This document shows positions 5,627 to 61,424 of a stretch of 64,000 nucleotides of DNA, one piece after another. A program made the position numbers and the translations under genes. The stretch covers positions 23,020-87,019 of the forward strand of contig CAZIZE010000063.1 of NCBI GenBank assembly GCA_964543655.1, in the 5' to 3' direction. The DNA is from an uncultured bacterium. Lineage in GTDB: Bacteria; DYJV01. How positions within the stretch are numbered: the stretch's first letter is position 1; each line of letters starts with the position of its first letter. The notes beneath the pieces are model-generated. The model was not told the origin of the DNA. It did no database searches and saw only the letters and a program-made list of their open reading frames with translations.

Positions 5627-5648
5627 AAAATAAAATGGAGAGAGAAAA

Positions 5649-6779: not shown

Positions 6780-6797
6780 AATAGAAAAGGAAAATTT

Positions 6798-7028: not shown

Positions 7029-7031
7029 TTT

Positions 7032-7550
7032 ATGAAAATTTTTTCTACAAGGTTTGGTGAAATTGAGATTAAGGATAATTCTACAATTTTTTTTCCAGAA
7101 GGTATTCCTGGTTTTCAAGATTTTAAAAATTATGTGTTATTAAGAAAAGAAGATAATGATATGTTCTGTTTTTTACACTCAACTGATACTCCTGATTTAA
7201 TGTTTATTCTCACTATTCCTTACCTTGTTTTATTTGATTATGAATTTAATATCCCTACAGAGGATTGTAACCTTCTGGAAATAGAAGAGAAAAATTTAGA
7301 AGATGTAGGTGTATTTGTTATTACAAAAATTGATAAAAATAAAAATATTTTTATAAACTTAAAAGCCCCTGTATGTATTAATTTTGAGAAAAAAATAGGA
7401 AAGCAGATTATTCTATATAACAGCGATTATTCTCACCAATTCAAACTTGAGCCAGAAAAAATTGTTGAGAATTTTAAGAAAAATTTTGATAATTCAAAGG
7501 TTAACCTATCAAAACTGTGCATGAATATGGAAATAGCCACTTCTATTTAA
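7032..7550 (+). CDS. fliW: Flagellar assembly factor FliW
   Basis: FliW family N-terminus (MKIFSTRFGEIEIKDNSTIFFPEGIPGF...); adjacent to csrA as in the FliW-CsrA partner-switch arrangement. Confidence 0.85.
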   Translation: MKIFSTRFGEIEIKDNSTIFFPEGIPGFQDFKNYVLLRKEDNDMFCFLHSTDTPDLMFILTIPYLVLFDYEFNIPTEDCNLLEIEEKNLEDVGVFVITKIDKNKNIFINLKAPVCINFEKKIGKQIILYNSDYSHQFKLEPEKIVENFKKNFDNSKVNLSKLCMNMEIATSI

Positions 7551-8073
7551 TTTTTTCAAAATTATTGGGGAGTAAGTATTTTTTGGCAAGGTCAATGTAA
7601 AGCTGCTTGGCATACAACCAGAACTCTTTATGCCTCTCCTGCACATTGCCAATGATTTCAAAAGGATTACCTGCAACTATTTTTTCATCAGGAATTACAG
7701 CTCTTCTATTAACAACTGCTCCTTCTGCAACAATACTCCATTTGCCAATTACAACATCAAACCCAATAATAGCACCAATGCCAATTACTGAAAAAGATTT
7801 TAGCTCATTGCAGTGAAGTATTGCTCCATGCCCAATTGTAACTTTTTCACCTATTTTAAGAATCCCATTTGGTCTAATGTGTAAATTTGCTCCCTCTTCA
7901 ACAGCTGTGCCATTCCCTATTTCTATGGTGCCATAATCACCTCTTAATATTGCTCCATGGCCAACATAGCAGTTGTCACCAATTATAACATCACCTATTA
8001 CAAGGGCTGAATCACTAACAAAAGAATTTTTCCCAATAACAGGGACTCTATTATTAAATTTGTAAATAGCCAT
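7543..8073 (-). CDS. Gamma-class carbonic anhydrase / hexapeptide-repeat (LbH) family protein
   Basis: Left-handed beta-helix hexapeptide repeats throughout, gamma-CA/PaaY-like N-terminus (AIYKFNNRVPVIGKNSFVSDSALVIGDVIIG). Confidence 0.8.
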   Translation of the reverse strand: MAIYKFNNRVPVIGKNSFVSDSALVIGDVIIGDNCYVGHGAILRGDYGTIEIGNGTAVEEGANLHIRPNGILKIGEKVTIGHGAILHCNELKSFSVIGIGAIIGFDVVIGKWSIVAEGAVVNRRAVIPDEKIVAGNPFEIIGNVQERHKEFWLYAKQLYIDLAKKYLLPNNFEKIK

Positions 8074-8075
8074 TT

Positions 8076-8109
8076 TATAGAAAAAGCACCTTAAAAAATT
8101 AAGGTGCTT
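8076..8109 (-). terminator. Rho-independent terminator downstream of the epimerase gene
   Basis: Hairpin AAGCACCTTAA-N6-TTAAGGTGCTT (8084-8109) followed on the minus strand by TTTTTCTAT. Confidence 0.5.
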
Positions 8110-8115
8110 AAATTT

Positions 8116-8532
8116 TTAGTGACCAGGTTGACAGATTTCAGTTAAAACCCCACCAGAAGCCTTTGGATGAATAAAAGCTACTTTTGTATTATGTGCACCA
8201 TCTCTTGGCTCATTGTCAATAAGTTTAACACCTTTCTCTTTTAAAACTTTAAGTGCTTCATTTATATCTTCCACTTCATAGCAAATATGATGAATGCCTT
8301 CTCTATTTTTTTCAAGGTATTTTGCTATTGGTGAATCAGGTGATGTGGCCTGAACAAGCTCAATATTAACTTCTCCTATTTTGAAAAAAGCAACTTTTAC
8401 TTTTTGAGATGCCACTTCATCAGTGCCATTAAACTGAAAACCCAATTGATCTTTATAAAACTTCATAGATTCTTCAAGGTTTTTTACAGCAATTCCAATA
8501 TGGTTAATTTTTTTAAACATGCTTACCTCCAT
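8116..8532 (-). CDS. Methylmalonyl-CoA epimerase (VOC/glyoxalase fold)
   Basis: HIGIAV...SPIAKYLEKNREGIHHICYEVEDI...GAHNTKVAFIHPK..GGVLTEI matches MCE; sits in a methylmalonyl-CoA gene cluster. Confidence 0.75.
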   Translation of the reverse strand: MEVSMFKKINHIGIAVKNLEESMKFYKDQLGFQFNGTDEVASQKVKVAFFKIGEVNIELVQATSPDSPIAKYLEKNREGIHHICYEVEDINEALKVLKEKGVKLIDNEPRDGAHNTKVAFIHPKASGGVLTEICQPGH

Positions 8533-8544
8533 TTTCTATGGTTT

Positions 8545-8943
8545 CTAATCTCTTTTTACATTTTCTTTTATAAAATCAATGGTTTCCTGAGTATCTGTGC
8601 CAGGAAGAAATATTGCCTTGATTCCATTTTCTTTTAAAAAAGGTATGTCATCTTCTGGTATAATTCCACCACCAAAAACAAGTATATCATCACCACCCAT
8701 TGCTTTGAGGTTTTTAACAACTTCAGGAAATAATTTCTTATGTGCACCTGATAAACAGCTCAGCCCTACTGCATCAACATCTTCCTGAACAGCTGTCATT
8801 GCTATCTGCTTGGGTGTTTGCCTTATACCAGTGTATATTACTTCAAAACCTGCATCTCTAAGTGCCCTTGCAACTACTTTTGCACCTCTATCATGTCCAT
8901 CAAGACCAGGTTTTGCAATTAGAACTCTTATTTTTTTACCCAT
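8545..8943 (-). CDS. Methylmalonyl-CoA mutase, B12-binding small subunit
   Basis: Cobalamin-binding motif [26 protein letters not shown] (DxHxxG) in a 132-aa stand-alone domain. Confidence 0.85.
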
Positions 8944-8975
8944 TTTTACCCCCTAAAATTTTTTCAAAACAAGTG

Positions 8976-10634
8976 TTATAAAATTGTACTTGCCTGATAT
9001 TCACCAAAAACATCTCTTAAAGTATCACAAATCTCCTGTAATGTTGCATAGGTTTTTACAGCTGAAAGTATAAAAGGAACTATATTTTTACCTTCTGATG
9101 CAGCTATTTTTAATTCATTGAGGCTCTCTTTTACTTTATTATTATCTCTCTCTGCTTTAACTTTTTTTAGTTTTTCTACTTGAAATTTTTCAACTTCTTC
9201 ATCTATTTTCAACAACTCTTTTTTATCTTCTTCTTCTATTTGAAATTTATTAACTCCCACAACAATCTGCTCTAATTTTTCAACAGCTCTCTGATATTTA
9301 TACGCACTGTCACTAATCTCCTGATGGACAAAACCTGTTTCAATTGCTTTAATCATTCCACCTATATCATCTATTTTTTGAATATATTCCATTGCTCTTT
9401 CTTCAATTTCATCTGTTAATTTTTCTACCATATAAGACCCTGCAAATGGATCAATGCTATCTGCAACTCCACTTTCATAAGCGATAATTTGCTGGGTTCT
9501 TAATGCAATTCTCACAGAATCCTCCGTAGGAAGAGAGAGAGCTTCATCTCTTGAATTTGTATGAAGAGACTGAGTCCCGCCAAGTACAGCAGCAAGAGCC
9601 TGTAAAGTAACTCTAATAACATTATTGTCAGGTTGCTGTGCTGTTAAAGTAGAGCCTGCTGTCTGAGTATGAAATCTTAGCATCATAGAACGAGGATTTT
9701 TGGCTTTAAATCTTTCTTTCATAATTTTTGCCCATAATCTTCTTGCAGCTCTAAATTTTGCAATTTCTTCAATAAAATTATTATGAGCATTAAAGAAAAA
9801 GGAAAGACGTTGAGCAAAAGAATCAACATCAAGACCTGCTTTAATTGCAGCATCAACATAAGCAATGCCATCAGCAAGTGTAAAAGCAACTTCTTGAACA
9901 GCACTTGAACCTGCCTCTCTAATATGGTACCCACTAATTGATATTGTATTCCATTTTGGCAGATTGTCCTTACAATACTCAAAAATATCTGTAATAATCT
10001 TCATTGATTCTTTTGGTGGAAAAATATATGTTCCTCTTGCAAAGTACTCTTTTAACACATCATTTTGAATTGTGCCTCTTAATTTCTCAATGGCAACCCC
10101 CTGCTTTTCTGCAACTGCAATATACATTGATAATAAAATTGAAGCAGGAGAATTTATTGTCATTGAAGTACTAACCTTGCCAAGGTCAATTCCATCAAAA
10201 AGAATTTCCATATCTTTAAGACTATCTATTGCTACTCCAACTTTTCCCACTTCTCCAGAGGATAATTCACTATCAGAATCATAACCAATCTGAGTTGGAA
10301 GGTCAAAAGCCACTGATAGACCAGTTTGCCCCTGTTCAAGAAGATATTTGTATCTTTTATTTGTTTCTTCAGCAGTCCCAAATCCAGCATATTGCCTCAT
10401 TGTCCAGAATCTACCTCTATACATTGTAGGCTGTACACCTCTTGTAAAGGGGTATAATCCTGGAAAACCCACTTCATCAGCATAATCTTTCCCTTGAATA
10501 TCCTCAGGAGTGTAGAGTCTTTTGATTTCAATTTCAGATGTTGTTTGAAAAGTCTCTCTCCTTTCAGGATATTTTGAAAGAGCCTTTTCTACTGATTGTT
10601 CCCATTGTTTCTTTAATTCTTTGTAATCACCCAT
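8976..10634 (-). CDS. Methylmalonyl-CoA mutase, catalytic large subunit
   Basis: TIM-barrel mutase domain motifs ([37 protein letters not shown]...[14 protein letters not shown]...); forms a split mutase with the small subunit. Confidence 0.9.
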
Positions 10635-25150: not shown

Positions 25151-25996
25151 ATGAAAATTAAGAGAAAAATTTTTCAGGTATTATTTACAATATTTAACAA
25201 TATTTATCTGCTATTTCCTTTCACAGGGAGAATTTATCAAGGAAATCTAAAATATATATGTTCACCAGGATTAAATTGCTATTCTTGCCCTGCAAGTATT
25301 TTTGCATGTCCAATAGGAGCAATGCAAAACTTTTTTACTGGTTTAAAAGCAGGTATTGCATTTGGTAAGTATTATTTTGGTATTTTTGTAATAGGTTTTT
25401 TAGGAACAATAGGTATGTTGTTAGGGAGAATTGTATGTGGCTGGGCATGCCCTTTTGGTTTATTTCAAGAAATATTGTATAAAATACCTACAAAAAAATT
25501 TAAAATTAATTTTTCGTATCTTAAGTATTTAAAATATCTCATTTTAGTTATTATGGTAATTATTTTACCAATATTTCTTACAGACAATTTTGGATATGGC
25601 TCAGCTATTTTTTGCAAGTATCTCTGTCCTGCTGGCACTCTTGAAGCAGGTTTGCCTCTACCACTGCTAATACCTTCTTTGAAAGAAATGATAGGTTTTC
25701 TATATTACTGGAAATTATCAATATTGATAATATTTATAATTTTTTTTATAATTTCCAAAAGGCCATTTTGTAGATACCTCTGTCCTCTTGGAGCAATATA
25801 CTCTTTATTTAACAGATTCTCTTTTCTCCAGTTAGAGAAAGATTTGACAAAATGCACTAAATGCTTAAAATGTGAGGCAGTTTGTCCCATGTCATTAAAA
25901 TTAGATGAAATTCCTAAGGATCAGAATTGTATAAGATGTTTTAGCTGTATTAAAGCCTGTCCTGAGAAAGCAATAAAAATAAGTTTTAGAAGTTAA
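25151..25996 (+). CDS. NapH/MauN-type membrane polyferredoxin (4Fe-4S)
   Basis: Repeated CxxCP-type motifs (GWACPFG, CKYLCPAG, CRYLCPLGA) plus two C-terminal CxxCxxCxxxCP ferredoxin motifs. Confidence 0.7.
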   Translation: MKIKRKIFQVLFTIFNNIYLLFPFTGRIYQGNLKYICSPGLNCYSCPASIFACPIGAMQNFFTGLKAGIAFGKYYFGIFVIGFLGTIGMLLGRIVCGWACPFGLFQEILYKIPTKKFKINFSYLKYLKYLILVIMVIILPIFLTDNFGYGSAIFCKYLCPAGTLEAGLPLPLLIPSLKEMIGFLYYWKLSILIIFIIFFIISKRPFCRYLCPLGAIYSLFNRFSFLQLEKDLTKCTKCLKCEAVCPMSLKLDEIPKDQNCIRCFSCIKACPEKAIKISFRS

Positions 25997-26922
25997 GCTT
26001 TATATGTTTTTTCATAAATAAGCAACATTAAAAGTGCAATAATCATTGGAAGGATAAAATAGATTACCCTATAGAGAAGCAAAGATAAAAATAGAGTATT
26101 AACATTGAAAATATTTTTCAGGTAATAAATTATAATTGAATCAAAAACTCCTATTCCTGCTGGGACATGACTTGTAACTGCACCAATCTGAGCAACTAAA
26201 AATATTGGAAAAAAATTTTCAAAAGATAATCCATTTGGAAGTAAAAAGTAGAATACAAATGATAATAAGAGCCAATCAAGAGTAGAAATTATAGTGATAA
26301 TCACCAATCTTTTGCTACTTGCTATTGGAAATAGAATTTTCCATTTTAAATTAAAAATATCTTTTATTATTGATAATGATGAAAAAGCTAATAAAATAAC
26401 TAAAGAAGCTATTCCTATTTCATAACCTGAAAATTTTATATTAGTAAATGGCAGGTTAAACATATAATTTGGCTCAATAAATAAAAAAGTTATTAAAGAT
26501 AGAAATATTAAACCAACCCAGTAAACCCATGATAAAATAACAAGGTATTTACCAATATCTTTAATATTTATATTCATTTTTGTAAAAAAACGGAACCTTA
26601 AAATTCCACCAAGGAAGGCACCGAAGCCAAGATTATTATTTATTATAAATGTAATGAGTGAGATTAATGACAAACGTTTCAAAGGAATTTTCAATTTTAG
26701 CTGTGAAGCAACAGAAATATCGTAAAATGTAATAATTATATAGTTTAAAATGGTCAAGCCTAATGCCCATATAATGTAATTTATCTGAACAGAATTGAAA
26801 GCAGCAATTACCTTCTCACAGGACAATTCTTTGGAAATTTGAAACATATACCTAAAAGAGAGATAAATAATAGTAGCAATAATAGCTATATTTATAAATT
26901 TTAAGATGCTTTTTTTATTCAT
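25993..26922 (-). CDS. Polytopic membrane protein, UPF0104 / lysylphosphatidylglycerol-synthase-TM-like
   Basis: About 8 predicted TM helices; family assignment by overall topology and sequence feel only. Confidence 0.4.
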   Translation of the reverse strand: MNKKSILKFINIAIIATIIYLSFRYMFQISKELSCEKVIAAFNSVQINYIIWALGLTILNYIIITFYDISVASQLKLKIPLKRLSLISLITFIINNNLGFGAFLGGILRFRFFTKMNINIKDIGKYLVILSWVYWVGLIFLSLITFLFIEPNYMFNLPFTNIKFSGYEIGIASLVILLAFSSLSIIKDIFNLKWKILFPIASSKRLVIITIISTLDWLLLSFVFYFLLPNGLSFENFFPIFLVAQIGAVTSHVPAGIGVFDSIIIYYLKNIFNVNTLFLSLLLYRVIYFILPMIIALLMLLIYEKTYKA

Positions 26923-26928: not shown

Positions 26929-27828
26929 TTAGTTTTTTAATATTTCACTTAAATATCCTTTTTGTAGCATTTCTAAATTCAACAAATAGTCAGCTTGATA
27001 AAAGTATTCTTTTAAAGGGGCTTGGGTTTTAATCCATCCTTGTCCATCAGTAATCCAGATGAATTCTATTCCCTGTTTTTTCCAAAATTGATTCATTGTA
27101 ATATATTCACCAGCAGTAGATTTTAACTTGGAACCACCGCCACCATAAAAGTTGGTTTCTATAAAATATAATTTTTTATTTTTACAAATTACAAAATCAA
27201 TTTTTCTATATGATTTATCAACTTTAATATTAAATCCCCATTTATTTTTAATTTTTGAAGCTGTTGCCTGAGATATATAATCAGCATTGTTTAAATAACA
27301 TGCATTAGCTACAAAAATTTCTACAATAGATTCCATTAAAGAGCCAATTCTATTTTTTCGGGCATTACTATCTAAACCAACTTCTACACCTATAACATAA
27401 TCTACTAAATTCTTAATTTTTTTATTAATTAAAAGCTTTCCAATCCCTGATTCTAAAAGAAATTCAGCAAATTTTTCTGCTTCTTCAATGGTGGGTGAGC
27501 TATTTTTAAAGTTGAATCTTTTATATATAAAGCGATTTATATTAACCAAAATCTCCAGAGAATTTTCTCTTATTGCCAAAAGCTTGGGAATAGCTTTTAT
27601 TACCTGTGGATACTCTAAAATAAGCGAAATCGCTTCATTTATAAAGTCATCTTTGCCAATTAGAGAATTTAAAAGATTTAATTCTCGTTCTATTGGAGTT
27701 ATATTCTTTAAAACTTTTTCCCAATTAACAAAGTAATCCCACTTTGTTATTTTATGTTTTAAAGTTTTAATAAAGTAATCAAAAAACTCATCTTCTGATA
27801 TTTTTGCTATTTGACAGATCTTTTTCAT
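26929..27828 (-). CDS. Type II restriction endonuclease, DpnII/MboI family (predicted GATC specificity)
   Basis: Closely parallels R.DpnII: NLVDYVIGVEVGLDSNARKNRIGSLMESIV, FIETNFYGGGGSKLKSTAGEY, WITDGQGW. Confidence 0.85.
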   Translation of the reverse strand: MKKICQIAKISEDEFFDYFIKTLKHKITKWDYFVNWEKVLKNITPIERELNLLNSLIGKDDFINEAISLILEYPQVIKAIPKLLAIRENSLEILVNINRFIYKRFNFKNSSPTIEEAEKFAEFLLESGIGKLLINKKIKNLVDYVIGVEVGLDSNARKNRIGSLMESIVEIFVANACYLNNADYISQATASKIKNKWGFNIKVDKSYRKIDFVICKNKKLYFIETNFYGGGGSKLKSTAGEYITMNQFWKKQGIEFIWITDGQGWIKTQAPLKEYFYQADYLLNLEMLQKGYLSEILKN

Positions 27829-27836
27829 AATTTATT

Positions 27837-28691
27837 TTAAGGTAAAACTCCATAATTTTGAATAGTTTCCTTAACTTGCATTTTATTGAATATAGAATTT
27901 TTTTGTAAAAAAAGCTCCTCACTAATTCTTGGGATAGCAAGTTTTTCTAAATATTGTTTTTCTGAATCTATACCAACAAATTTTCTTTTGTATCTAATAG
28001 CTACAACACCTGTAGTGCCACTACCACAGAAAGGATCAAGCACAATATCGCCTTCATTGCTTGATGCTAAGATAATTCTTTTAAGTAATGTTTCAGGTTT
28101 TTGGGTTGGATGTTTACCAAATTTTTTCTCACCATTTTTAGGAGTATTTATTGCCCAAACACTTCTCATTTGTTTATTTGGTTTTTTTATAAAATCATCA
28201 TTCCATTCACCATTTTTCATTAAATCATAATTAAATAAATGTTTTGCTTTTTTATTTTTTTTTGCCCATAAAAGAGTTTCATGGCTGGCAGTAAACATTC
28301 TACAGGAAAGGTTGGGAGAGGCATTTGGCTTAAACCAGCATATATCATTGATTAAATGCCATCCCTGTTTCTGAAGTGCAAAACCACAAGCATATATTGA
28401 ATGATAAGTCCCTGAAATCCATAATGTCCCGGTTGATTTTAATACTCTTTTACATGCTTCTATCCATTTATAATGAAACTGAAAATCCTCTTCAACACCT
28501 CTACTTTTATCCCATTCCCCTTTATTTACACTTACTCTTTTTCCTGCATGGCAGGTAAATCCATCATTTGAAAGATTATATGGTGGATCAGCAAAAATTA
28601 GGTCTATGCTTTCTTCTGGTAATTGAGTTAAAGTTTCAATTACATCTCCATGGTAGATTCTAATACCAATGTCACTAAAAAATGGTTTCAT
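27837..28691 (-). CDS. N6-adenine DNA methyltransferase, DpnA (M2.DpnII)-like beta-class
   Basis: IFADPPYNLS motif IV, SVNKGEWDK, WISGTYHSIY, NLSCRMFT, FGKHPTQKPE, LDPFCGSGTTGVVA (motif I at the C-terminus); 8 nt upstream of the endonuclease gene. Confidence 0.9.
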   Translation of the reverse strand: MKPFFSDIGIRIYHGDVIETLTQLPEESIDLIFADPPYNLSNDGFTCHAGKRVSVNKGEWDKSRGVEEDFQFHYKWIEACKRVLKSTGTLWISGTYHSIYACGFALQKQGWHLINDICWFKPNASPNLSCRMFTASHETLLWAKKNKKAKHLFNYDLMKNGEWNDDFIKKPNKQMRSVWAINTPKNGEKKFGKHPTQKPETLLKRIILASSNEGDIVLDPFCGSGTTGVVAIRYKRKFVGIDSEKQYLEKLAIPRISEELFLQKNSIFNKMQVKETIQNYGVLP

Positions 28692-36015: not shown

Positions 36016-36168
36016 TTTCGGGCTTAAGCCCTCAAAATGACTGTTTTGATGGCAGAGAGGAGCACTGTGTGAAAAAATTACTGTTGGGTTTTACATTTGG
36101 TTTTGGATAAGAGCACCTATAAAAAACAAAGTTGGATTTTATACTTGGCTCTGTATTGGTTATAAAAA

Positions 36169-36240
36169 GCTGGTAAGGGGAATTGAACCCCTGACATGCT
36201 GATTACGAATCAGCTGCTCTACCATCTGAGCTATACCAGC
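36169..36240 (-). tRNA. tRNA-Thr (anticodon CGU)
   Basis: Reverse complement GCTGGTATAGCTCAGATGGTAGAGCAGCTGATTCGTAATCAGCATGTCAGGGGTTCAATTCCCCTTACCAGC folds as a cloverleaf (7-bp acceptor, GCTC/GAGC D stem, anticodon loop TTCGTAA, GGTTCAATT T-loop); CCA is not encoded. Confidence 0.85.
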
Positions 36241-36245: not shown

Positions 36246-38339
36246 TTAATTTCCCATTATTTCATTATAAGCTTTTATTAGCATTTCTCTGTAATATTCT
36301 ATATCATAAGAATCAGCAATTTGTCTAATTTTTACTCGCTCTTCTGAGACTTTGCTTCTATTATCTGTAATTACATATTCTACACTTTCGCCAGGTTGTA
36401 TATTGGTGAGAGAAGATGCAGCAATTATATTTAGATTTTTATTTTTATATGAAGATATAGGTTTTGAAACTCTTTTTTTTATTACCAGTTCATCAATATT
36501 GACCTCTCCATTTTGTAACAGTAGAAGATATTCTTTTAAAATTTTATTAGCGCGTTTATAATCTGGGAAAATTTTTAACAATTTTTGCTGAAAATTTTTT
36601 ATAAATATAGGGGTGTCCCTTTTTCTAAGCATCAGTCCTCTTACCTTTATTTTGCCATTATCAAATATGCCAAAAAATTTATTCATAACCTGTTTATTTT
36701 TATTCTCTGCTGAAGGAAGAAATTTAATGAATTGATAAATCCCTTCTATGTTGAGGATAAAACCAGTTTTAGTTGATATTTCTTTTGCAATATTTGTATA
36801 TTCTTCTCTTGTGGCATTTTTTTTATATATGTAGAGAGAGTCAGTTACTGCATAAATAATTTTAAACCCACTATTTTCAGCTATTTCTTTTGCTTTTAGT
36901 AGAATATCTCTGCCAGCAGCAGTTGTTGCTTCATGAGCTTCTACACATCCAAATTTTGCATTTTTATATCCTAAATAACCAAAGCAAGTAACGAGCATCC
37001 ATTTTATAGCATTCTGTCTATTTTTAAAAACTTCACTTGCTTTAAAATTTTTGTAAAGCTTTCTTTTTTTTAATAAAGGAGATATTGTCTCCGGGATAAT
37101 ACCTTGTTTTTTCTGACAAAAATAGTAATTAGTGCCAGGTATTTTAAGCTTTTCTGAAATATGCTGGCAACATTTGCAGTTTAATGTTTCAACTGATATG
37201 TTGAATTTTTCAATTATTGATGGATACATTGAAAAAAAGTCAACTTCTGCTACATTCTTGAAAATACCTACAGGTGGCAGGAAAAATAGACCACCTTTGT
37301 CAACTTTTATAAAATCTATTGCCCTTTTGAACCTTTCTGGAAAGGCTTTGTGTGAAGGAATAAGGTAATTATTTTTATAAGCTGTTTTTAGCTCCATTGT
37401 GGATATTGAGGAGCCAGGAGAAATTCTCGCAGCTTCTTGCAAAGGAAGTGAAGTGAGCCGTGCCACTTCTATTAACCCGTCAATTCCAGAATTTTTTACA
37501 AAAAAAGAATTATTAATGTCTATATGAATTCTACCTTTAAGATAGCTTATACTATCTTTAAATACTACTTTACCGTATGAAAAAAAGGAGTAAGATTTTT
37601 TTGATACAATTTTCAGATTATCTGTAGGTCTTGAGAGGGGTATATCTATGTTATATTTTTGGGCTCCAAACTTTATTAGGGGAATAATTACAGGATCTCC
37701 TGATAATGTAATAACCATATCAGGATCATATTCTTTAAAAATATTTCCAATGGAAATAAAAAATTCTTCTGTATCAAATTTTTCAAAAAAAAGTTTCTCT
37801 CCATTGGGCATGGTAATATCAATACCTGTCCATTGTGAATACTTTGGATTGCCCTTGCACACAGGGAATATGCCTAAAATGTTTAAAGGTGGTAATTTGT
37901 AATTTATATCCATGGGATTGTCTAAAGATTTAATAGAGATAATATGGTTGTTATTATGTGTTACTTCAACTTTTGCAAATGGAAAAAGATTGTGCTCAAA
38001 GTAAAATTGCAACAGAGGTGAAAGGTCAGAGTTGTAGACTCCTATATTTTCCTGGTTAAGAAGATAAGCTTTTACATTCCAGAAATTTTTAATATCCATT
38101 TTTATACCATAAACTTTTACCTTTTTTCCTGTGTAAATTTCTCCCATTTCTGTAGAGTAAAATGAAATTTTAAAAAATTTAGATAAATTTTTAATAAATT
38201 TATATGATGATTTAACATAAAGTGTAGGAGTGTAATTAAAGTATAGAAAAGATTTGCTTGCTTCATTATTAACTAAACATAGGAGCAATTTATTGTTATC
38301 AATAAAAGTATCAAGGAGAAAAAGTTCATTCTTTTTCAT
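36246..38339 (-). CDS. Family B DNA polymerase (Pol II / archaeal PolB-like) lacking the 3'-5' exonuclease catalytic motifs
   Basis: Motif A DFFSMYPSII, motif B KWMLVTCFGYLGY, motif C IYAVTDSLYI (YxDTDS), KxY-region NKFFGIFDNGKIKVRGL, plus PolB-typical GRIHIDI and GIIPETISPLLKKRKLYK. Exo I (DxE) and Exo II (NxxxFDxxY) positions are replaced (LLDTF; ITLSGDPVIIPLI). Confidence 0.8.
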   Translation of the reverse strand: MKKNELFLLDTFIDNNKLLLCLVNNEASKSFLYFNYTPTLYVKSSYKFIKNLSKFFKISFYSTEMGEIYTGKKVKVYGIKMDIKNFWNVKAYLLNQENIGVYNSDLSPLLQFYFEHNLFPFAKVEVTHNNNHIISIKSLDNPMDINYKLPPLNILGIFPVCKGNPKYSQWTGIDITMPNGEKLFFEKFDTEEFFISIGNIFKEYDPDMVITLSGDPVIIPLIKFGAQKYNIDIPLSRPTDNLKIVSKKSYSFFSYGKVVFKDSISYLKGRIHIDINNSFFVKNSGIDGLIEVARLTSLPLQEAARISPGSSISTMELKTAYKNNYLIPSHKAFPERFKRAIDFIKVDKGGLFFLPPVGIFKNVAEVDFFSMYPSIIEKFNISVETLNCKCCQHISEKLKIPGTNYYFCQKKQGIIPETISPLLKKRKLYKNFKASEVFKNRQNAIKWMLVTCFGYLGYKNAKFGCVEAHEATTAAGRDILLKAKEIAENSGFKIIYAVTDSLYIYKKNATREEYTNIAKEISTKTGFILNIEGIYQFIKFLPSAENKNKQVMNKFFGIFDNGKIKVRGLMLRKRDTPIFIKNFQQKLLKIFPDYKRANKILKEYLLLLQNGEVNIDELVIKKRVSKPISSYKNKNLNIIAASSLTNIQPGESVEYVITDNRSKVSEERVKIRQIADSYDIEYYREMLIKAYNEIMGN

Positions 38340-38565
38340 GTAGCGTTCTGATTTCTTTTAAAAGCTCTATGCACATTGATAACAATATACCTTCCATTGG
38401 CAGGGGGAAAGAGGAATAAGCGCATGCTTGAATATGTTTTCTTGCTTTTTCCCATAATTCATCAAATATCTCTTGATCCTCTTTTCGAAGTGCGCGTCTA
38501 AAATCTTTGAGATTGCTTTTTTCTCTGTTTAATACGTATGTAAAAGGTGCAACTGTCCTGCCCAT
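38326..38565 (-). CDS. Hypothetical small protein (79 aa) within the lexA-polB operon
   Basis: ORF overlapping both neighbours (14 nt with polB, 37 nt with the RecA-fold gene); no recognisable domain. Confidence 0.35.
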   Translation of the reverse strand: MGRTVAPFTYVLNREKSNLKDFRRALRKEDQEIFDELWEKARKHIQACAYSSFPLPMEGILLSMCIELLKEIRTLHEKE

Positions 38566-39068
38566 AGCTTATTAACCCCTTTTTTTAGATGAAGTGGCTT
38601 TACAATAGATGTATCTTCTATAAATACTTTGCTCTTCTTTTCCACTATTTTATAGTATCCTCTTCTATCAAATCTATTTAAAGTTATAATAGCAGGTGAT
38701 ATGTGAGATAGATAAGATAGAGATTTTCTAAAAATTTTCATTGCATGTATATGAGAAATATTGTCATCATCAAGCAGGGTAGTAAAACCCAGTAGTATAA
38801 ATAGAAAATTTTTACCTGTTTTTTTGAAAAAGAGAATTTTCTCTATAAGTTTTAACATTTGAAATGGTGTGAAAGCTCGGGCAATAAATATATTTTCAAG
38901 AATGGTGTATGGTGTAATTTTCATTGCTACACAGATATTTGATATAAGGTATGGGTCAAATTTGTTTGCAGCATCAACAACAATGATATTGGAATTATCT
39001 CTGAAAATAGCCCTGATATAGTACCAGATAAATTTGTGAATCCCTGAATTACCAGCAACTGCAATCAT
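38529..39068 (-). CDS. RecA-fold protein with a degenerate Walker A (ImuA/SulA-like)
   Basis: IAVAGNSGIHKF (degenerate P-loop) then IIVVDAANKFDPYLISNICVAMKI, which aligns to RecA [21 protein letters not shown]. A later hydrophobic strand ends in DDD (FLFILLGFTTLLDDD), like RecA VIVVDSV. 179 aa, similar in size to SulA or ImuA. Confidence 0.5.
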   Translation of the reverse strand: MIAVAGNSGIHKFIWYYIRAIFRDNSNIIVVDAANKFDPYLISNICVAMKITPYTILENIFIARAFTPFQMLKLIEKILFFKKTGKNFLFILLGFTTLLDDDNISHIHAMKIFRKSLSYLSHISPAIITLNRFDRRGYYKIVEKKSKVFIEDTSIVKPLHLKKGVNKLWAGQLHLLHTY

Positions 39069-39682
39069 GATATTTTCCTTATTATCCCAACAACTTTACC
39101 TATTATTTTAACTTCATCAGGATTGATATTGTTAAGGATAATATCTTCATATTTATCATTTTCAGGATGAAGAATGATAAGGTTGTCCTTTTTTATAAAT
39201 CTCTTTAAAGTAATTTCATTGTAAATAGATGCAACAACAATGTCGTTATGCTCAACATTAGAATCAGTTGATACCACAGCAATATCTCCATCTTCAATAA
39301 GAGCATTTATCATTGAATCACCAATAACTTTAAACATAAAAATATTAGAAAATGGAAAAATTTTAGTATCAACAATGTAGTAATCTTCTGCAACTTCGTT
39401 AATATCAATTGGTGAACCAGCAGCTACATAAGATATAAGAGGAGCTTTTTTTATATTACTGGCTGGCTCTTCAATAGAAAGAGATATACCTCTGGAGATT
39501 TTTTTCTCTTTTTTTAAATATCCCTTTTTTTCTAAAATAGTAACATATTTGAAAGCATTTTTAGGTGCAATGCGAAAATGTTCAGCTATCTCTCTAATGG
39601 TAGGGGGCAGCCCCCTGTTATGTAAAAAATCTTTAATAAATAGATAGACTTCTTTTTCTTTTAATGTAATATTGGGTAACAT
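39065..39682 (-). CDS. lexA: LexA repressor
   Basis: N-terminal wHTH (LKEKEVYLFIKDFLHNRGLPPTIREIAEHFRIAPKNAFKYVTILEKKGYL), Ala-Gly cleavage site VAAGSP, catalytic Ser in VIGDSM and Lys in ITLKRF. Confidence 0.9.
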   Translation of the reverse strand: MLPNITLKEKEVYLFIKDFLHNRGLPPTIREIAEHFRIAPKNAFKYVTILEKKGYLKKEKKISRGISLSIEEPASNIKKAPLISYVAAGSPIDINEVAEDYYIVDTKIFPFSNIFMFKVIGDSMINALIEDGDIAVVSTDSNVEHNDIVVASIYNEITLKRFIKKDNLIILHPENDKYEDIILNNINPDEVKIIGKVVGIIRKIS

Positions 39683-39717
39683 ATGTTACCTATAGTTGAA
39701 AAAAATATTTTTGTCAA
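39675..39717 (-). promoter_or_regulatory. Candidate lexA promoter/operator: imperfect 22-bp inverted repeat TTGACAAAAAT|ATTTTTTTCAA containing a consensus -35 TTGACA, plus a perfect 16-bp palindrome GGTAACATATGTTACC spanning the lexA start codon
   Basis: In lexA sense: TTGACA-N17-TATAGG then AGGTAACAT-ATG. The 22-bp inverted repeat at 39696-39717 matches at 10 of 11 positions per arm. Confidence 0.4.
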
Positions 39718-55577: not shown

Positions 55578-56181
55578 TAACCAGCAGATAGAAGTTGATG
55601 TTAACAAATTTAATAATTTAGAGGATCTTATTTATGAAGTAATGAGTAAGTTTATTCCAGGTGATAGATTGTTGGTTGAAGTAAAAGTTAATGATGTAAC
55701 TTTTTCTGAGAGATGGCCTGGAGAAGCTAAAATAGTCCCTCTTGATAAAATAGTGAAATTAGATTTTCTCACTGTTCCAATAGAAGAAGCTGCATCTAAA
55801 ATGCTTGATGATTTACCGGCTCAGATAGATATGATTCATAAGGGATTGTTAGAAGCAGCAGAGCTTTACAGAGTTGCAGATGAGCAGGAAGCCAACCTAC
55901 ATTTTGTTAAAATGTTAGCTACATTAAGAGATTTTGTAAGTTTTATTACTCAGCTTAGGAAAGCAAATATTATTAATTGGGATAAACTTAATATTGATGG
56001 TATGGAAATAGAAACTCATTATGAAAAACTTAATAAATTAATAGATGAGATGCTTGATGTTCAGGAAGATGAAGATTGGATTTTACTTGCTGATCTTATT
56101 GAATATGAATTAAATCCAATAATGATAAAATGGAAAGAGTTTTTAGAGCAGGCAAATAGGCATTTAAAAGAAAAAATATGA
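55561..56181 (+). CDS. Hypothetical protein (about 206 aa)
   Basis: GGAGGAG Shine-Dalgarno 7 nt before the ATG at 55561; no recognisable domain. Confidence 0.4.
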   Translation: MKVYLDNQQIEVDVNKFNNLEDLIYEVMSKFIPGDRLLVEVKVNDVTFSERWPGEAKIVPLDKIVKLDFLTVPIEEAASKMLDDLPAQIDMIHKGLLEAAELYRVADEQEANLHFVKMLATLRDFVSFITQLRKANIINWDKLNIDGMEIETHYEKLNKLIDEMLDVQEDEDWILLADLIEYELNPIMIKWKEFLEQANRHLKEKI

Positions 56182-58073
56182 AAGAAGTAGTTTATAAAGG
56201 ACATGGCCAAATAGAGAATTACTCTATTGATTCTGCTCTATGGGGTGTTGTTGCCCATGAGCAGAGGCATGCAAATTTTAACAGATATATTTCATCAATA
56301 AAAAATGAAGAAGTAGATCAAGATGTTAAAATTACCATTCAATTTGAAGATGGCAAACCTGTACCAGTAAAAGCCTACACAGAAGCTAAATTTGACAAAA
56401 ATAGTAAAAAAGAAGAAGATTTTTTAAAAGTATTATTTTTAAATTTTCAAATTTCAAAAACCAAAAAAGAAATAGAAAATACTGAAAATAAAGATAGAAG
56501 AATAGAACTATACATTAAACTGAGAGACTATGAGCAGCAACTTGAAAACTTAAAAAAGAGATTATTTATTTCTGACAAAACGGAATATAAAAAAGATAAT
56601 GCCCAATTTTATGGTATTTACGATTTCCAGAAATATAACATTCCACCTGTTAGATTAACAGACCCTTTTTTATCAGGTTATGAAGTTAACCAATTGTTAA
56701 AAGATGCTTATCTTAAAGATAGCTCCTCTACAGCAATGCCTGAGAAATTAATATATCAGAATAAGAATTACAAAGATTATGTTGTTAATGCATTGGAAGA
56801 GCTTTATAGAAAATTTTTGGATTTAGATTCATTTTTAAATGATTATAATTTTCAATTTTATCAAGCTAAATCAAACGATTATTTTAATTTAGTTATTACA
56901 GATAATTACAATGATGGAGAAAAGGAATTTAAGATAAATATTAAAAGCATTGCAAAATCATTTATAGTGTATTCGAAAAAATTTTTTGATCCTTATGAAG
57001 CTCTTGGGATAAGTGGTAGTTTTAAGTTAAATGGAGTAGAAATAGATGTTGATACTACAGATTCACTTTATGATATTGTTGAAAAGATAAACTGGGGTGA
57101 AGATACCAATCACAATGGTGTTCTTGATTATGATCTTGGAGAAGATGTTAATAATAATCAGCAGTTAGATGGTGGGACATCTGATCATGGGATATATGCT
57201 TATATTGAAAATAACAGATTGTTTTTAAAAAATTTTGAAACAGGAGATAAAACCATTGTAATAGATGATTCAGATAATATTTTACACAATTTTAACATTA
57301 TAGCTGAAAATCCTGATGATGATTCATATTATTTCCCAAATATTTTTCAAAAGGGCACAAATGCAGATGTTGTTATTAATGGAAAAGAAATCTCTTCTGT
57401 TTCAAATCTTATTTCATACAATGGAATGTTATTTAATTTAAAGCATGTTACCAATGGTGATTATACTCTTAAAATTAATGCTGATAATGATACTGTTTTT
57501 AATAAAATTAAAATGTTTGTTAATGAGTACAACAGAGTAATTAAAGATTTAAATGAAAAATTAGAAGATGATAATTTTACCAAATCTTTTGTTGTATTAA
57601 AGATGAAGAGGGAGCTTACAGAGGCAGTATTTTCTGATGTTAAAAATATTGATGTAACAGATATAGGATTTAATTTATTAGATGAGAAAAATTATATTAC
57701 CCCTTTGCAACTAAGAGATCTTACTAATAAAAAATTTAATTTAAGCTTACACGATTTACTATATTCTATTGGTATTAAAAATAACAATGATGAAACAATT
57801 GAGATAGATGAAGACACATTAAAAAATTCTATAAAAAAGAATAAAAGTGGAGTGTATAATCTATTTTTTTCTGAAAATGGAGTGGTAAATAGATTAAAAG
57901 AAGTTGTAAACAAAGTGATTAATACAGATAATGGAATGATAGCAAATGAAATCAGCCAGATCTCCTCAGAAAAATTATCAGAAATATTCAAGCTTTATGA
58001 AAAAGAAAAGGTTTATGCTCAATACTATGCTGAAAAATTAGGAACAATTAATGAAATAATAACATTAAAATAG
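56178..58073 (+). CDS. Hypothetical large protein (631 aa) with two dockerin/EF-hand-like Ca-binding loop motifs
   Basis: DTNHNGVLDYD and DVNNNQQLDGGTSD match the DxNxNGxxD loop pattern; otherwise no assignable domain. Start overlaps the previous gene by 4 nt. Confidence 0.4.
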   Translation: MKEVVYKGHGQIENYSIDSALWGVVAHEQRHANFNRYISSIKNEEVDQDVKITIQFEDGKPVPVKAYTEAKFDKNSKKEEDFLKVLFLNFQISKTKKEIENTENKDRRIELYIKLRDYEQQLENLKKRLFISDKTEYKKDNAQFYGIYDFQKYNIPPVRLTDPFLSGYEVNQLLKDAYLKDSSSTAMPEKLIYQNKNYKDYVVNALEELYRKFLDLDSFLNDYNFQFYQAKSNDYFNLVITDNYNDGEKEFKINIKSIAKSFIVYSKKFFDPYEALGISGSFKLNGVEIDVDTTDSLYDIVEKINWGEDTNHNGVLDYDLGEDVNNNQQLDGGTSDHGIYAYIENNRLFLKNFETGDKTIVIDDSDNILHNFNIIAENPDDDSYYFPNIFQKGTNADVVINGKEISSVSNLISYNGMLFNLKHVTNGDYTLKINADNDTVFNKIKMFVNEYNRVIKDLNEKLEDDNFTKSFVVLKMKRELTEAVFSDVKNIDVTDIGFNLLDEKNYITPLQLRDLTNKKFNLSLHDLLYSIGIKNNNDETIEIDEDTLKNSIKKNKSGVYNLFFSENGVVNRLKEVVNKVINTDNGMIANEISQISSEKLSEIFKLYEKEKVYAQYYAEKLGTINEIITLK

Positions 58074-59006: not shown

Positions 59007-61424
59007 TTATATTTGAGGTAGTTTGGCAATATTTGCCTGAAGGTATTGCATTTGGCCATTAAGCTGTGAAAGGGTTGCTTCCATTCTTGCAAATTGGTTT
59101 TGCAATCTTTTTTCTATAGATAAAATTCTATTTTTTTCTCTATCAATTTTAGTATCTATATTATTGATTATGCCGTTATAATTGTCAATTAAAACATTTA
59201 AAGGTCCATGATTAGGATCAAGAAGATCATCCAATTTGTTGTTTAATGTTTTTGTAACACCTGTAAGTAGTCTTATTTCAGCATCATATGTGCCATCTAC
59301 TGATGTATCAACAAGCAATTGTAAACCAGCTTCAGGATTACCAGCTTGACCAACTATATAGTTGCCATCTATAGTGGCATCATGACCATTTATTGTTGCT
59401 GCTGTAATTGTTCCACCTGATACAGTTACTTCAACTTCATAAGTGCCTGGTTCAGTAAGATTTTTTACATGGCTGTCATATGTAATTTTATTGGTTGTGG
59501 TATCATTTCTTCCTACACAATCAGCACCAAAAAGCAGTGCAACATCATCAGGATGATCTTGCAAAGCTTCTTCAAGTTTTGCACTATCTATTTCAAGATA
59601 TTTATCATCAACAGTTTTTATACCAATGGAGCTTAATGAAACGTATCTTTCAGAGCCTGGTGGAGGTTCAATAGAATTGATAGATTTAAATCCTGGTGGA
59701 ATTTCTGTTGCAGTTCTCATAATGTCGTATTGCACCATTTGTGCAGCATAATTACTTTGTAAAGTTCCTGCTTCTTTTGTCTGTGCATCATACTTTACAA
59801 CATCATCCATATATTTCATTAAATCGTTATATGCATCAACAAAGTTTTGTATTTTTTCTTCCATTGCAGAAGTGTCATTTGCAACAACAATAGTGGTATT
59901 ACCTGTAGATTTTAAAGTAATAGTTACACCATCAATAAGGTCTGATATTACATTGGAATCATGCTGAATGTATTGTGTTGGATCAGTTGGAAACCCATCT
60001 AATCTCACCATAGAATTTTGTGCTTCCTGTGTTTTGGTAAAAGTTGCAGATGTGAAATTTGTTGTACCAGAACTCCCATCAAGTGTAGTAGCTGTATCAT
60101 CAATTTCTATAGTATATGCAGCTCCCTGATTTTTACCTGTGAGAACAAGATGGTATGAATTACTTAACCCCTGTCCATCATTAACTATAGTGGCAATAAC
60201 TCCTGGGTTTTTGCTATCTTCATTTATTGCATCAGCAAGATCTTTTAATGTTGCACCATCTGCAACTGATACCTGAATTGTATCACCACCTGCATATTTG
60301 TAAGCAAAAATTTTTGCTGAACCACTGCTATTAATTATAGTATCTTCAGAAGCTACTCCAGCATGTAATTCCTTTTCTGTTTGAGCAAGACCAGAATCCT
60401 GAGCTTTTTGTAAATCTGGTGCCCATAAATCTATTTTGAATTTATCTCCTTCAGTGTAAGTTGTGTTGGCATTTAAGGTAATTTGAACCCCTTGTTCCAC
60501 ATCAAAAGTCCCTGTAGCGCTTGTTTCAATAACTCCTGATTTACCAAGCTCATCATCTGTCCATCTGATTTTTACTGTGTCTCCTGCACCTAAATCTCCA
60601 CCTTGAATTACCTCAAAATTAATTGATTTATTGGTAACTCCAGTGTAGGTGCCTCCACTTGTAACATTACTTGAGCCAGATGTTCCTACAATATCCTCAA
60701 CATCGTCAATATTTGTATTGACAAAGTCTGTGGAAGTGTTGTTGGTTGGCACTGTAATTGTATTAGCACTACCACCTGATTGGCCTGTTAAAACCAATCT
60801 GTAAGGATTACTTGTAGAACTATCATTTAAAATACTTGCAACAATTAATTTATTCCCACTTCCATCATCATTGTCTGAATCACCATTAATTGCATTAGCT
60901 AACTCCTCAAGGCTAAGATCACCACTGCTATCAGCATCATAGGCTGAGGCCTCTGTGTCTGTAACAGTAATTGTATGGCCACCTATAGTTAAAACAATTG
61001 CATTTGTAGCACTACCAAGTGTGTAAACAGAGTCAGTTGAAGCAGAGAATCCCTGAGATGCAAGTTTATGATTAATTGCTGAACCAACAGTGAGATTGTA
61101 TGAACCAGGTTCAGCAAGAGGAGTGTTGGTTACAGTTGCTACACTTTCATTGCTTGAAAGGGAAGTTCTTGAATAAAAGTCGTTAAAAGAATCAAGAGCT
61201 GCAACAGAAGATTGAAAGGTACTGAGTTTTGAGTTATAATTTTGCAGTTCATCTATTTTCTTTTGCCATGATTCTTTCCAAACTTCCATTCTGTTAACTG
61301 TAACAGATTCCTGTTTAACAACGGCATCAATAATACTTTTGTAGTCTATTCCTGAAGCAATACCTGTAAATGTTATTGATGGTCCGGCAGTTGTGCTTAC
61401 TGCATCTGCCATATTTCCCTCCAA
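59007..61424 (-). CDS. fliD: Flagellar filament cap protein FliD (HAP2), long form (805 aa)
   Basis: FliD N-terminal (ITFTGIASGIDYKSIIDAVVKQESVTVNRME...) and C-terminal helical regions (ILSIEKRLQNQFARMEATLSQLNGQMQYLQ); large central insertion. Confidence 0.8.
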   Translation of the reverse strand: MEGNMADAVSTTAGPSITFTGIASGIDYKSIIDAVVKQESVTVNRMEVWKESWQKKIDELQNYNSKLSTFQSSVAALDSFNDFYSRTSLSSNESVATVTNTPLAEPGSYNLTVGSAINHKLASQGFSASTDSVYTLGSATNAIVLTIGGHTITVTDTEASAYDADSSGDLSLEELANAINGDSDNDDGSGNKLIVASILNDSSTSNPYRLVLTGQSGGSANTITVPTNNTSTDFVNTNIDDVEDIVGTSGSSNVTSGGTYTGVTNKSINFEVIQGGDLGAGDTVKIRWTDDELGKSGVIETSATGTFDVEQGVQITLNANTTYTEGDKFKIDLWAPDLQKAQDSGLAQTEKELHAGVASEDTIINSSGSAKIFAYKYAGGDTIQVSVADGATLKDLADAINEDSKNPGVIATIVNDGQGLSNSYHLVLTGKNQGAAYTIEIDDTATTLDGSSGTTNFTSATFTKTQEAQNSMVRLDGFPTDPTQYIQHDSNVISDLIDGVTITLKSTGNTTIVVANDTSAMEEKIQNFVDAYNDLMKYMDDVVKYDAQTKEAGTLQSNYAAQMVQYDIMRTATEIPPGFKSINSIEPPPGSERYVSLSSIGIKTVDDKYLEIDSAKLEEALQDHPDDVALLFGADCVGRNDTTTNKITYDSHVKNLTEPGTYEVEVTVSGGTITAATINGHDATIDGNYIVGQAGNPEAGLQLLVDTSVDGTYDAEIRLLTGVTKTLNNKLDDLLDPNHGPLNVLIDNYNGIINNIDTKIDREKNRILSIEKRLQNQFARMEATLSQLNGQMQYLQANIAKLPQI

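What the first reader, a model, noticed from the sequence alone, without database searches (positions are those of the whole stretch)
39675..39717. Paired palindromes at the lexA promoter: candidate SOS box for this lineage
Two symmetric elements sit just upstream of the lexA ATG. One is the 22-bp inverted repeat TTGACAAAAAT/ATTTTTTTCAA, which contains a perfect -35 TTGACA. The other is the perfect 16-bp palindrome GGTAACATATGTTACC, centred on CATATG and overlapping the start codon. Either could be the autoregulatory LexA operator. Neither resembles the E. coli CTGT-N8-ACAG box or the Gram-positive GAAC-N4-GTTC box, so the operator for this LexA may be a distinct motif.
Basis: seen in the sequence. 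Interest (0 to 1): 0.5.

Follow-up and report, generated by a model that had tools for sequence, protein, structure and literature searches.

The report
LexA operator overlapping lexA's start codon
The 16-bp palindrome GGTAACATATGTTACC at the start of lexA is very probably this uncultured bacterium's own LexA binding site, a variant of known LexA boxes, while the neighbouring A/T-rich palindrome is only the -35 promoter element plus chance symmetry.

Summary
Position and conservation are what matter.

The 16-bp palindrome (39675-39690) contains the lexA ATG. It follows a conserved TTGACA-17-TATA(A/G/T)G promoter, so the mRNA is probably leaderless. GGTAAY-AWAT-GWTACC is kept in all nine distinct lexA promoters of this clade, while the rest of the upstream DNA is unalignable.

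The same box sits in non-coding DNA in lexA promoters of a distant, GC-rich LexA family from Deltaproteobacteria/Thermodesulfobacteriota MAGs (34-35% identity). That family shares the recognition-helix signature PKNAxK(H/Y). A third locus, predicted from the helix signature alone, also carried the box. A cassette-linked Nitrospirae LexA with a different helix has a different palindrome at the same spot.

The 22-bp A/T-rich repeat is not conserved; only its TTGACA is.

Its core AACATATGTT is the Firmicutes consensus core, and its 18-bp frame differs from the Geobacter box at one symmetric position.

LexA binding and regulon membership remain untested. This is a new variant of a known kind, of modest interest.

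The parts
39675..39690 (.). Candidate LexA operator, the 16-bp perfect palindrome GGTAAC-ATAT-GTTACC. The 18-bp frame is 39674-39691. Clade consensus is (G/A)GGTAAY-AWAT-GWTACC(C/T).
   Evidence: for the sequence. for conservation (identity 0.89 at -8..-1 and 0.97 at +1..+8, against 0.29-0.49 in the other upstream segments). for the same box in three lexA promoters of a distant family.
39712..39717 (-). -35 element TTGACA of the lexA promoter.
   Evidence: Exact TTGACA in eleven of the twelve lexA promoters examined and TTGACT in the twelfth, L215. In the nine clade promoters it ends 29-32 nt before the ATG.
39689..39694 (-). -10-like hexamer TATAGG, 17 nt after the -35. Its last two bases are the first two of the palindrome.
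   Evidence: TATA(A/G/T)G at this spacing in the orthologues. The promoter scanner did not call it because position 6 is G, not T.
39680..39682 (-). lexA start codon inside the palindrome. The inferred transcription start is at or next to its A (leaderless mRNA; inference).
   Evidence: The A of the ATG is the 7th base after the -10 hexamer. The N-terminus aligns with solved LexA proteins from residue 5.
39065..39682 (-). lexA (205 aa), first gene of the operon.
38529..39068 (-). 179-aa RadA/Rad51-like protein with a degenerate P-loop, matching the 'inactivated RadA' of the PolB2 cassette. It overlaps the lexA stop by 4 nt.
   Evidence: Weak Rad51/RadA matches. Conserved gene order. Described in PMC4104785.
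38326..38565 (-). 79-aa protein. Its orthologues carry DUF8156. It occupies the position of the arCOG07300-type partner of PolB2 (equivalence inferred).
   Evidence: Precomputed DUF8156 hits on orthologues. tblastn conservation. PMC4104785.
36246..38339 (-). 697-aa family B DNA polymerase of the archaeal PolB2-like type, last gene of the operon. No exonuclease domain was detected. Motif C reads VTD instead of DTD.
39696..39717 (.). 22-bp A/T-rich imperfect palindrome. It is the -35 element plus an A/T-rich spacer and is not a conserved element.

Best explanation
The 16-bp palindrome is the operator through which a LexA dimer represses its own four-gene operon: lexA, an inactivated RadA-like gene, a DUF8156 gene and a PolB2-like polymerase gene. 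The promoter is TTGACA-17 nt-TATAGG. The palindrome begins inside the -10 hexamer and runs across the transcription start and the ATG. Bound LexA would therefore block RNA polymerase. After DNA damage, RecA-stimulated self-cleavage at the conserved Ala-Gly site would release the promoter. Because the ATG lies about 7 nt after the -10 hexamer, the mRNA is probably leaderless, and the right half-site GTTACC(C) doubles as codons 1-3 (Met-Leu-Pro). The half-site GGTAAC is read by a recognition helix with the signature PKNAxK(H/Y). Shown here: the sequence, the gene identities, conservation of the box, its recurrence in a distant LexA family, and the link between helix type and box type. Inferred: LexA binding, the transcription start, and damage-induced derepression.
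For: 1. The gene is a true lexA and heads an operon conserved in all relatives, although the flanking genes differ.
2. Nine distinct clade promoters were compared, with LexA identity as low as 55% to the window protein. Only TTGACA, TATA(A/G/T)G and GGTAAY-AWAT-GWTACC are kept. Identity is 0.89-0.97 in the box against 0.29-0.49 in the other upstream segments.
3. The gap from the -35 to the ATG is 29-32 nt, which leaves no room for a leader.
4. Codon 3 is CCC in 6 of 9 orthologues, yet CCC is only 6.8% of Pro codons in window genes. This points to DNA-level selection for the symmetric base.
Two are lexA promoters from a GC-rich family only 34-35% identical to this LexA. There the box is non-coding, lying 18 nt (L118) and 2 nt (L175) upstream of the ATG.
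6. That family shares the helix signature (G/S)(P/A)(K/Q)NAxKH with the clade's APKNA(F/H)KY.
7. Prediction test: a third family member, P0290, was chosen before its DNA was seen. It comes from a 58% G+C genome. Its promoter reads TTGACT-17-TATCAT-A-GGGTAACATTTGTTACCC-T-ATG, and this is the only site with fewer than 3 mismatches in 20 kb.
8. Contrast: the Nitrospirae locus L023 has the same lexA-RadA-like-DUF8156-PolB cassette and the same promoter layout. Its helix is SPNGVKKH and its palindrome is GTGTAC-AAAT-GTACAC. Its LexA is as distant from the window LexA (34%) as the family that shares the box.
9. The same footprinting approach recovers published boxes in Firmicutes and Fibrobacter loci.
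Against: There are no binding data. No second site with 2 or fewer mismatches exists in about 178 kb of clade DNA, and no canonical SOS gene could be examined, so regulon use is unshown. The right half-site is coding in this clade, so part of its conservation is shared with the Met-Leu-Pro N-terminus. A 16-bp palindrome is not rare in this window. The same palindrome type lies upstream of TetR-family and MqsR-like genes in other metagenome loci, so it is not exclusive to LexA. The promoter scanner did not call the promoter because the -10 hexamer ends in G.
Confidence: 0.8

Rival explanations
1. The palindrome is conserved for reasons other than LexA binding. The left half would serve the promoter discriminator or a weak ribosome-binding site (AGGT/GGGT), and the right half would simply encode Met-Leu-Pro.
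For: The right half is coding and Met-Leu-Pro is conserved. AGGT/GGGT lies 5-6 nt before the ATG. Palindromes of this size occur by chance in the window.
Against: The complete palindrome recurs where it is entirely non-coding and at different distances from the ATG, in L118, L175 and L215. The rare CCC codon is favoured at codon 3. The -35 to ATG distance leaves no transcribed ribosome-binding site. The box type follows the LexA helix type.
Confidence: 0.07
2. The palindrome is the operator of another regulator, for example a TetR-family protein, which controls lexA.
For: Identical 16-mers lie in the promoters of TetR-family genes in other metagenome loci (L100, L116, L142).
Against: In those loci the palindrome sits in the regulator's own promoter. 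By the same logic, twelve lexA promoters point to LexA. No TetR gene is linked to the operon, and its neighbours differ between relatives.
Confidence: 0.04
3. The palindrome works as an RNA hairpin at the 5' end of the mRNA, sequestering the AUG or stabilising the transcript.
For: It folds as a 6-bp stem with a 4-nt loop at -6.8 kcal/mol. The C-to-T change in L086 and L088 would keep a G-U pair.
Against: The fold z-score is only -1.26, and 27 of 200 shuffles fold as well. With the inferred start site the left arm is not transcribed in this clade. There are no compensatory double changes, the half-site sequence itself is conserved, and L083 breaks a pair. This role could coexist with LexA binding in the GC-rich family.
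Confidence: 0.05
4. The 22-bp A/T-rich inverted repeat is the LexA operator, or a second one.
For: It overlaps the -35 element and pairs at 10 of 11 positions in the window.
Against: In eight orthologues the equivalent arms pair at only 5-8 of 11 positions, and only TTGACA is kept. Seven such 22-bp palindromes occur in the window, and shuffles reach 7.
Confidence: 0.02

Closest known systems
Geobacter sulfurreducens LexA box, GGTTnnCnnnnGnnnACC, also written GGTT-N10-AACC (Jara et al. 2003, as cited in PMC2248561 and PMC8565304)
   Same: An 18-bp palindrome with outer GG/CC, T at position 4 and an inner C-N4-G. It lies in autoregulated lexA promoters of operons that also encode a translesion polymerase. 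The relative L215 has lexA-DUF6504-IMS. The bacterial affinity is deltaproteobacterial.
   Different: Position 3/16 is G/C, or A in the window, instead of T/A. The inner AA/TT is fixed here. I could not obtain the Geobacter LexA sequence or the original paper, so whether Geobacter LexA has the PKNAxKH helix is unknown.
Cheo box of Firmicutes and Actinobacteria, CGAAC-N4-GTTCG (PMC4951493; PMC2248561)
   Same: The same dyad geometry with a 4-bp A/T-rich spacer. The core AAC-ATAT-GTT is identical, and the role as a lexA autoregulatory operator is the same.
   Different: The outer core base is T, not G (TAAC against GAAC), in 12 of 12 sites. Extra GG/CC flanks are conserved. The recognition helix is APKNAFKY, against SSSTVHGH in GAAC binders.
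Cyanobacterial LexA box, RGTAC-N3-DGTWCB, with footprint consensus aggtACAtaTGTacct (PMC2248561)
   Same: AGGTAC-ATAT-GTACCT is nearly the same string, with GGT at the outside and ACATATGT at the centre.
   Different: Each half-site here is one base longer (GGTAAC against GGTAC).
PolB2 - arCOG07300 - inactivated RadA - lexA operon (Makarova, Krupovic and Koonin 2014, PMC4104785; example Leptospirillum ferriphilum LFML04_0990-0993)
   Same: The same four gene types in one operon headed by lexA.
   Different: The passages I read from that paper describe the gene association and mention no operator. Here the operator is proposed for two versions of the cassette, GGTAAC-type in this clade and GTGTAC-type in L023.

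Membership tests
Autoregulatory LexA operator (SOS box) | It lies in the core promoter of a gene encoding a genuine LexA, with an HTH domain, an S24 peptidase domain, the Ala-Gly cleavage site and the catalytic Ser/Lys. | tested here: met
   for the protein. for the position from -10 to +8.
Autoregulatory LexA operator (SOS box) | The repeat-structured motif is conserved in orthologous lexA promoters while the flanking DNA diverges. | tested here: met
   9 of 9 clade promoters plus 3 of 3 examined promoters of a distant family.
Autoregulatory LexA operator (SOS box) | The motif type follows the LexA recognition helix (alpha3). | tested here: met
   PKNAxK(H/Y) goes with GGTAAC. SPNGVKKH goes with GTGTAC in L023. 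SSSTVHGH goes with GAAC. Overall identity does not predict the box.
Autoregulatory LexA operator (SOS box) | The motif recurs upstream of other damage-inducible genes (a regulon). | tested here: inconclusive
   No further site with 2 or fewer mismatches in about 178 kb of clade DNA. None of the about 45 window genes annotated is a canonical SOS gene; about 11 ORFs at 10.8-20.4 kb were not annotated. recA, uvrA and similar genes of this lineage could not be reached.
Autoregulatory LexA operator (SOS box) | Physical binding by LexA and RecA-dependent derepression. | not testable with these tools
   Needs EMSA or footprinting and expression data.
Cheo box (GAAC-N4-GTTC) | Half-sites GAAC and GTTC. 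| tested here: not met
   TAAC/GTTA in all 12 sites.
Cheo box (GAAC-N4-GTTC) | A 4-bp spacer and an AAC...GTT core. | tested here: met
   The comparison consensus is in PMC2248561.
Geobacter-type LexA box (GGTT-N2-C-N4-G-N2-AACC) | An 18-bp frame with GG..T..C-N4-G..A..CC. | tested here: met
   GGGTAAC-N4-GTTACCC in L081, L085, L089, L118 and L215, compared.
Geobacter-type LexA box (GGTT-N2-C-N4-G-N2-AACC) | T at position 3 and A at position 16. | tested here: not met
   G or A at position 3 in all 12 sites.
PolB2 / arCOG07300 / inactivated RadA / lexA cassette | The four gene families lie in one co-directional cluster. | tested here: met
   The equivalence of DUF8156 and arCOG07300 is inferred from size and position only.

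The most novel reading that the evidence does not exclude
GGGTAAC-N4-GTTACCC is the previously undescribed LexA box of a large LexA family with the PKNAxK(H/Y) recognition helix. The family includes Thermodesulfobacteriota/'Deltaproteobacteria' MAGs and this AT-rich uncultured clade. In these bacteria LexA governs little more than its own translesion-polymerase operon (PolB2 or DinB type). In this clade the box has moved onto the start codon of a leaderless mRNA, so that an operator half-site dictates the protein's Met-Leu-Pro N-terminus.
Probability: 0.4. Interest if true: 0.45.

Novelty: new variant of a known kind. Interest (0 to 1): 0.35.

Why it matters
LexA is a standard example of a transcription factor whose binding motif has drifted between phyla. 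This locus gives a well-footprinted motif, GGTAAC-N4-GTTACC, together with the helix signature that goes with it. The motif sits between the Firmicutes, cyanobacterial and Geobacter boxes. It lets SOS regulons be predicted in an uncultured lineage and in many Thermodesulfobacteriota MAGs. It also supplies the missing cis element for the lexA-PolB2-RadA-like cassette that comparative genomics linked to DNA damage. The mechanism itself, an autorepressed lexA promoter, is textbook.

Tried and rejected
1. Window-wide search for GTAAC-N4-GTTAC gave only the lexA site plus one 1-mismatch hit inside a gene, which is within chance. The 22-mer matches only itself.
3. Cluster look-up gave no source names. 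SecA homologues gave only a vague affinity: named hits are Deltaproteobacteria, Thermodesulfobacteriota and Nitrospirota MAGs at 62-65% identity.
4. Extending the contig on both sides (L093, L094) and annotating about 45 window genes found no canonical SOS gene and no second box.
5. The promoter scanner did not call the lexA promoter, because of its rule that the -10 hexamer must end in T. Rfam found only the tRNA.
6. RNA folding of the palindrome was not better than shuffles.
7. Literature string searches for the motif as a LexA box found nothing. The original Geobacter paper, PMC152628, is not held.
The hit counts (2 lexA promoters, several TetR and MqsR-like promoters) are therefore a sample, not a census.
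The only hit was in an unrelated actinobacterial locus.

Full report
**Observation.** On the minus strand the region reads TTGACAAAAATATTTTTTTCAAC TATAGG TAACAT ATG TTACCC.
- The perfect palindrome GGTAACATATGTTACC occupies 39675-39690. The lexA start codon (39682-39680) is bases 9-11 of it.
- The A/T-rich repeat occupies 39696-39717 and pairs at 10 of 11 positions.
- Symmetry alone is not significant here. The window (about 30% G+C) holds five perfect 16-bp palindromes against 3.7 expected. It holds seven 22-bp palindromes with at most one mismatch against a mean of 2.3 and a maximum of 7 in shuffles.

**Gene context.**
- The ORF 39065-39682 (minus strand) is a genuine LexA. It has LexA_DNA_bind plus Peptidase_S24 and scores 169.7 bits against the TIGR00498 cut-off of 110.95. 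It aligns over its full length with solved LexA structures. The Ala-Gly site and the catalytic Ser and Lys are invariant in the clade.
- It is the first gene of a tight four-gene operon. The other genes are a 179-aa RadA/Rad51-like protein with a degenerate P-loop, a 79-aa protein whose orthologues carry DUF8156, and a 697-aa family B polymerase.
- The polymerase is closest to archaeal-type PolB models and has no detectable exonuclease domain.
- Makarova, Krupovic and Koonin (2014) already described this association of PolB2, arCOG07300, inactivated RadA and lexA in a few bacteria and linked it to the damage response (PMC4104785).

**Phylogenetic footprint.**
- LexA homologues fall into a small clade of 13 clusters at 53-100% identity to the window protein, then drop to about 45%.
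- I recovered nine distinct lexA promoters of this clade: the window, L081, L083, L085, L086, L088, L089, L090 and L091.
- All keep the lexA-first operon, as far as the shorter contigs extend, while the flanking genes differ.
- Anchored on the ATG, only three things are kept. These are TTGACA, TATA(A/G/T)G about 17 nt later, and (G/A)GGTAAY-AWAT-GWTACC(C/T).
- Mean pairwise identity is 0.89 at -8..-1 and 0.97 at +1..+8. It is 0.29-0.49 in the other upstream segments and 0.53 in the next 37 coding bases.

**Promoter geometry.**
- The -35 element ends 29-32 nt before the A of the ATG. That equals a 17-nt spacer, a 6-nt -10 hexamer and 6-9 further bases.
- Transcription should therefore start at or within a few bases of the ATG, giving a leaderless mRNA. 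This is an inference.
- The tool's promoter rule rejects the -10 hexamer because it ends in G. That G is the first base of the palindrome.
- A repressor on the palindrome would cover the end of the -10 hexamer and the start site.

**Selection on the DNA rather than the protein.**
- The right half-site encodes Met-Leu-Pro, so coding constraint could inflate its conservation.
- However, codon 3 is CCC in 6 of 9 orthologues, while CCC makes up only 6.8% of Pro codons in 45 window genes. The C completes the 18-bp symmetry GGGTAAC...GTTACCC.

**The A/T-rich repeat.** In the eight other promoters the corresponding arms pair at only 5-8 of 11 positions, and only TTGACA persists. The repeat is the -35 element plus chance symmetry in an A/T-rich spacer.

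**Evidence from outside the clade.**
- Two of these loci are lexA promoters from 52-54% G+C contigs:
  - L118: TTGACA-17-TATATT-CG-GGGTAACAAATGTTACCC, then 18 nt including a Shine-Dalgarno sequence, then the ATG.
  - L175: TTGACA-17-TAATAA-T-AGGGTAACAGATGTTACC-TT-ATG.
- Their LexA proteins are only 34-35% identical to the window LexA.
- They belong to a large family whose named members are Deltaproteobacteria or Thermodesulfobacteriota MAGs.
- In that family the box is entirely non-coding.
- The family shares one conspicuous feature with the window clade, the recognition helix. It reads (G/S)(P/A)(K/Q)NAxKH there and APKNA(F/H)KY here. These residues align with E. coli S39-H46, the base-contacting helix (from my knowledge of PDB 3JSO).

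**Prediction test and contrast.**
- I chose another family member, P0290, before seeing its DNA. It is 66% identical to the L118 LexA and comes from a 58% G+C genome.
- Its promoter reads TTGACT-17-TATCAT-A-GGGTAACATTTGTTACCC-T-ATG. This is the only site with fewer than 3 mismatches in 20 kb, and it heads a lexA-DUF6504-IMS operon.
- The Nitrospirae locus L023 gives the opposite case. It carries the same lexA-RadA-like-DUF8156-PolB cassette and the same operator-abuts-ATG layout.
- Its helix is SPNGVKKH and its palindrome is GTGTAC-AAAT-GTACAC.
- The window LexA is as distant from L023's LexA (34%) as from the family that shares its box (34-35%). The box therefore follows the helix, not overall relatedness.

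**Relation to known boxes.**
- In other LexA loci fetched here, the lexA promoters show NNNAC-N4-GTNNN palindromes. The published Firmicutes (CGAAC-N4-GTTTG) and Fibrobacter (TGCCC-N4-GTGCA) types are among them.
- The window box shares its inner AAC-ATAT-GTT with the Firmicutes consensus and nearly matches the cyanobacterial footprint aggtACAtaTGTacct (PMC2248561).
- Its 18-bp frame differs from the Geobacter box GGTTnnC-N4-GnnAACC, also written GGTT-N10-AACC, only at position 3/16.
- No paper in the searchable library gives GTAAC-N4-GTTAC as a LexA motif.

**Regulon.**
- No second site with 2 or fewer mismatches exists in about 178 kb of clade DNA.
- None of the about 45 window genes annotated is a canonical SOS gene, and the two flanking loci L093 and L094 add none. 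About 11 ORFs at 10.8-20.4 kb were not annotated.
- I could not reach recA, uvrA or similar genes of this lineage.
- Absence of the box there would not refute the operator. Loss of recA regulation and small regulons are reported for Deltaproteobacteria (PMC4951493).

**Caveats and rivals.**
- The same 16-mer type lies in promoters of TetR-family genes and MqsR-like toxin genes in unrelated metagenome loci. The palindrome is therefore not exclusive to LexA.
- In those loci it sits in the regulator's own promoter. By the same logic, twelve lexA promoters point to LexA.
- An RNA hairpin is possible (-6.8 kcal/mol) but is no better than shuffles. It shows no compensatory changes, and in this clade its left arm would not be transcribed.

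**Verdict.** The 16-bp palindrome is very probably the LexA operator (confidence about 0.8). The 22-bp repeat is not an element. The box is a variant of known LexA boxes rather than an unrelated motif. The finding is useful but of modest interest.

Noticed in passing
window 36246-39068 (minus strand): lexA heads an operon with an inactivated RadA-like protein, a DUF8156 protein and an archaeal PolB2-like polymerase. The polymerase has no detectable exonuclease domain, and its motif C reads VTD. This cassette was described by comparative genomics in 2014 (PMC4104785), but the function remains untested in bacteria to my knowledge.
   Followed up: partly
L023 about 5180-9021 (Nitrospirae MAG): The same lexA-RadA-like-DUF8156-PolB cassette has a different palindrome, GGTGTACAAATGTACACC, abutting the ATG, and a different LexA recognition helix (SPNGVKKH).
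   Followed up: partly
proteins P0250-P0369: 11 of 120 LexA proteins of the PKNAxKH family begin with M-(L/Y/F)-P, for example MLPY and MYPY. Start codons inside the operator (ATG-TTA-CC or ATG-TAC-CC) may therefore recur in that family. MYP would imply a GGGTAC-type half-site variant. No DNA was checked.
   Followed up: no
L100, L116/L138/L196, L142, L186/L209/L107 (metagenome loci): The identical GGTAAC-N4-GTTACC palindrome lies in promoters of TetR-family regulators and MqsR-like toxin genes in unrelated, mostly AT-rich organisms.
   Followed up: partly
L215 10001-12100: In a 58% G+C Thermodesulfobacteriota-type genome the same box precedes a lexA-DUF6504-IMS (Y-family polymerase) operon, which resembles the lexA-dinB operons of Geobacter.
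   Followed up: partly
window 26929-28691 (minus strand), with an unannotated 309-aa ORF at 25993-26922: A DpnII-type restriction endonuclease lies next to an N6/N4 DNA methyltransferase, forming a probable restriction-modification system. The adjacent ORF has no Pfam match.
   Followed up: no
window about 14750: In ENA assembly ERZ27262694 the window is split between two contigs (k141_319624 and k141_494872). By coordinate arithmetic they abut at about window position 14750, so another assembly joined them. The junction was not examined.
   Followed up: no
window 56178-58073 (+) and 59007-61424 (-): Two FliD-like filament cap genes (631 and 805 aa) lie close together beside FliS. A flagellar gene cluster with a P-ring gene (FlgI), LolA and a heptosyltransferase indicate a flagellated diderm.
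   Followed up: no
window 36168-36240 (minus strand): tRNA-Thr (CGT) lies 5 nt downstream of the polB stop codon on the same strand.
   Followed up: no
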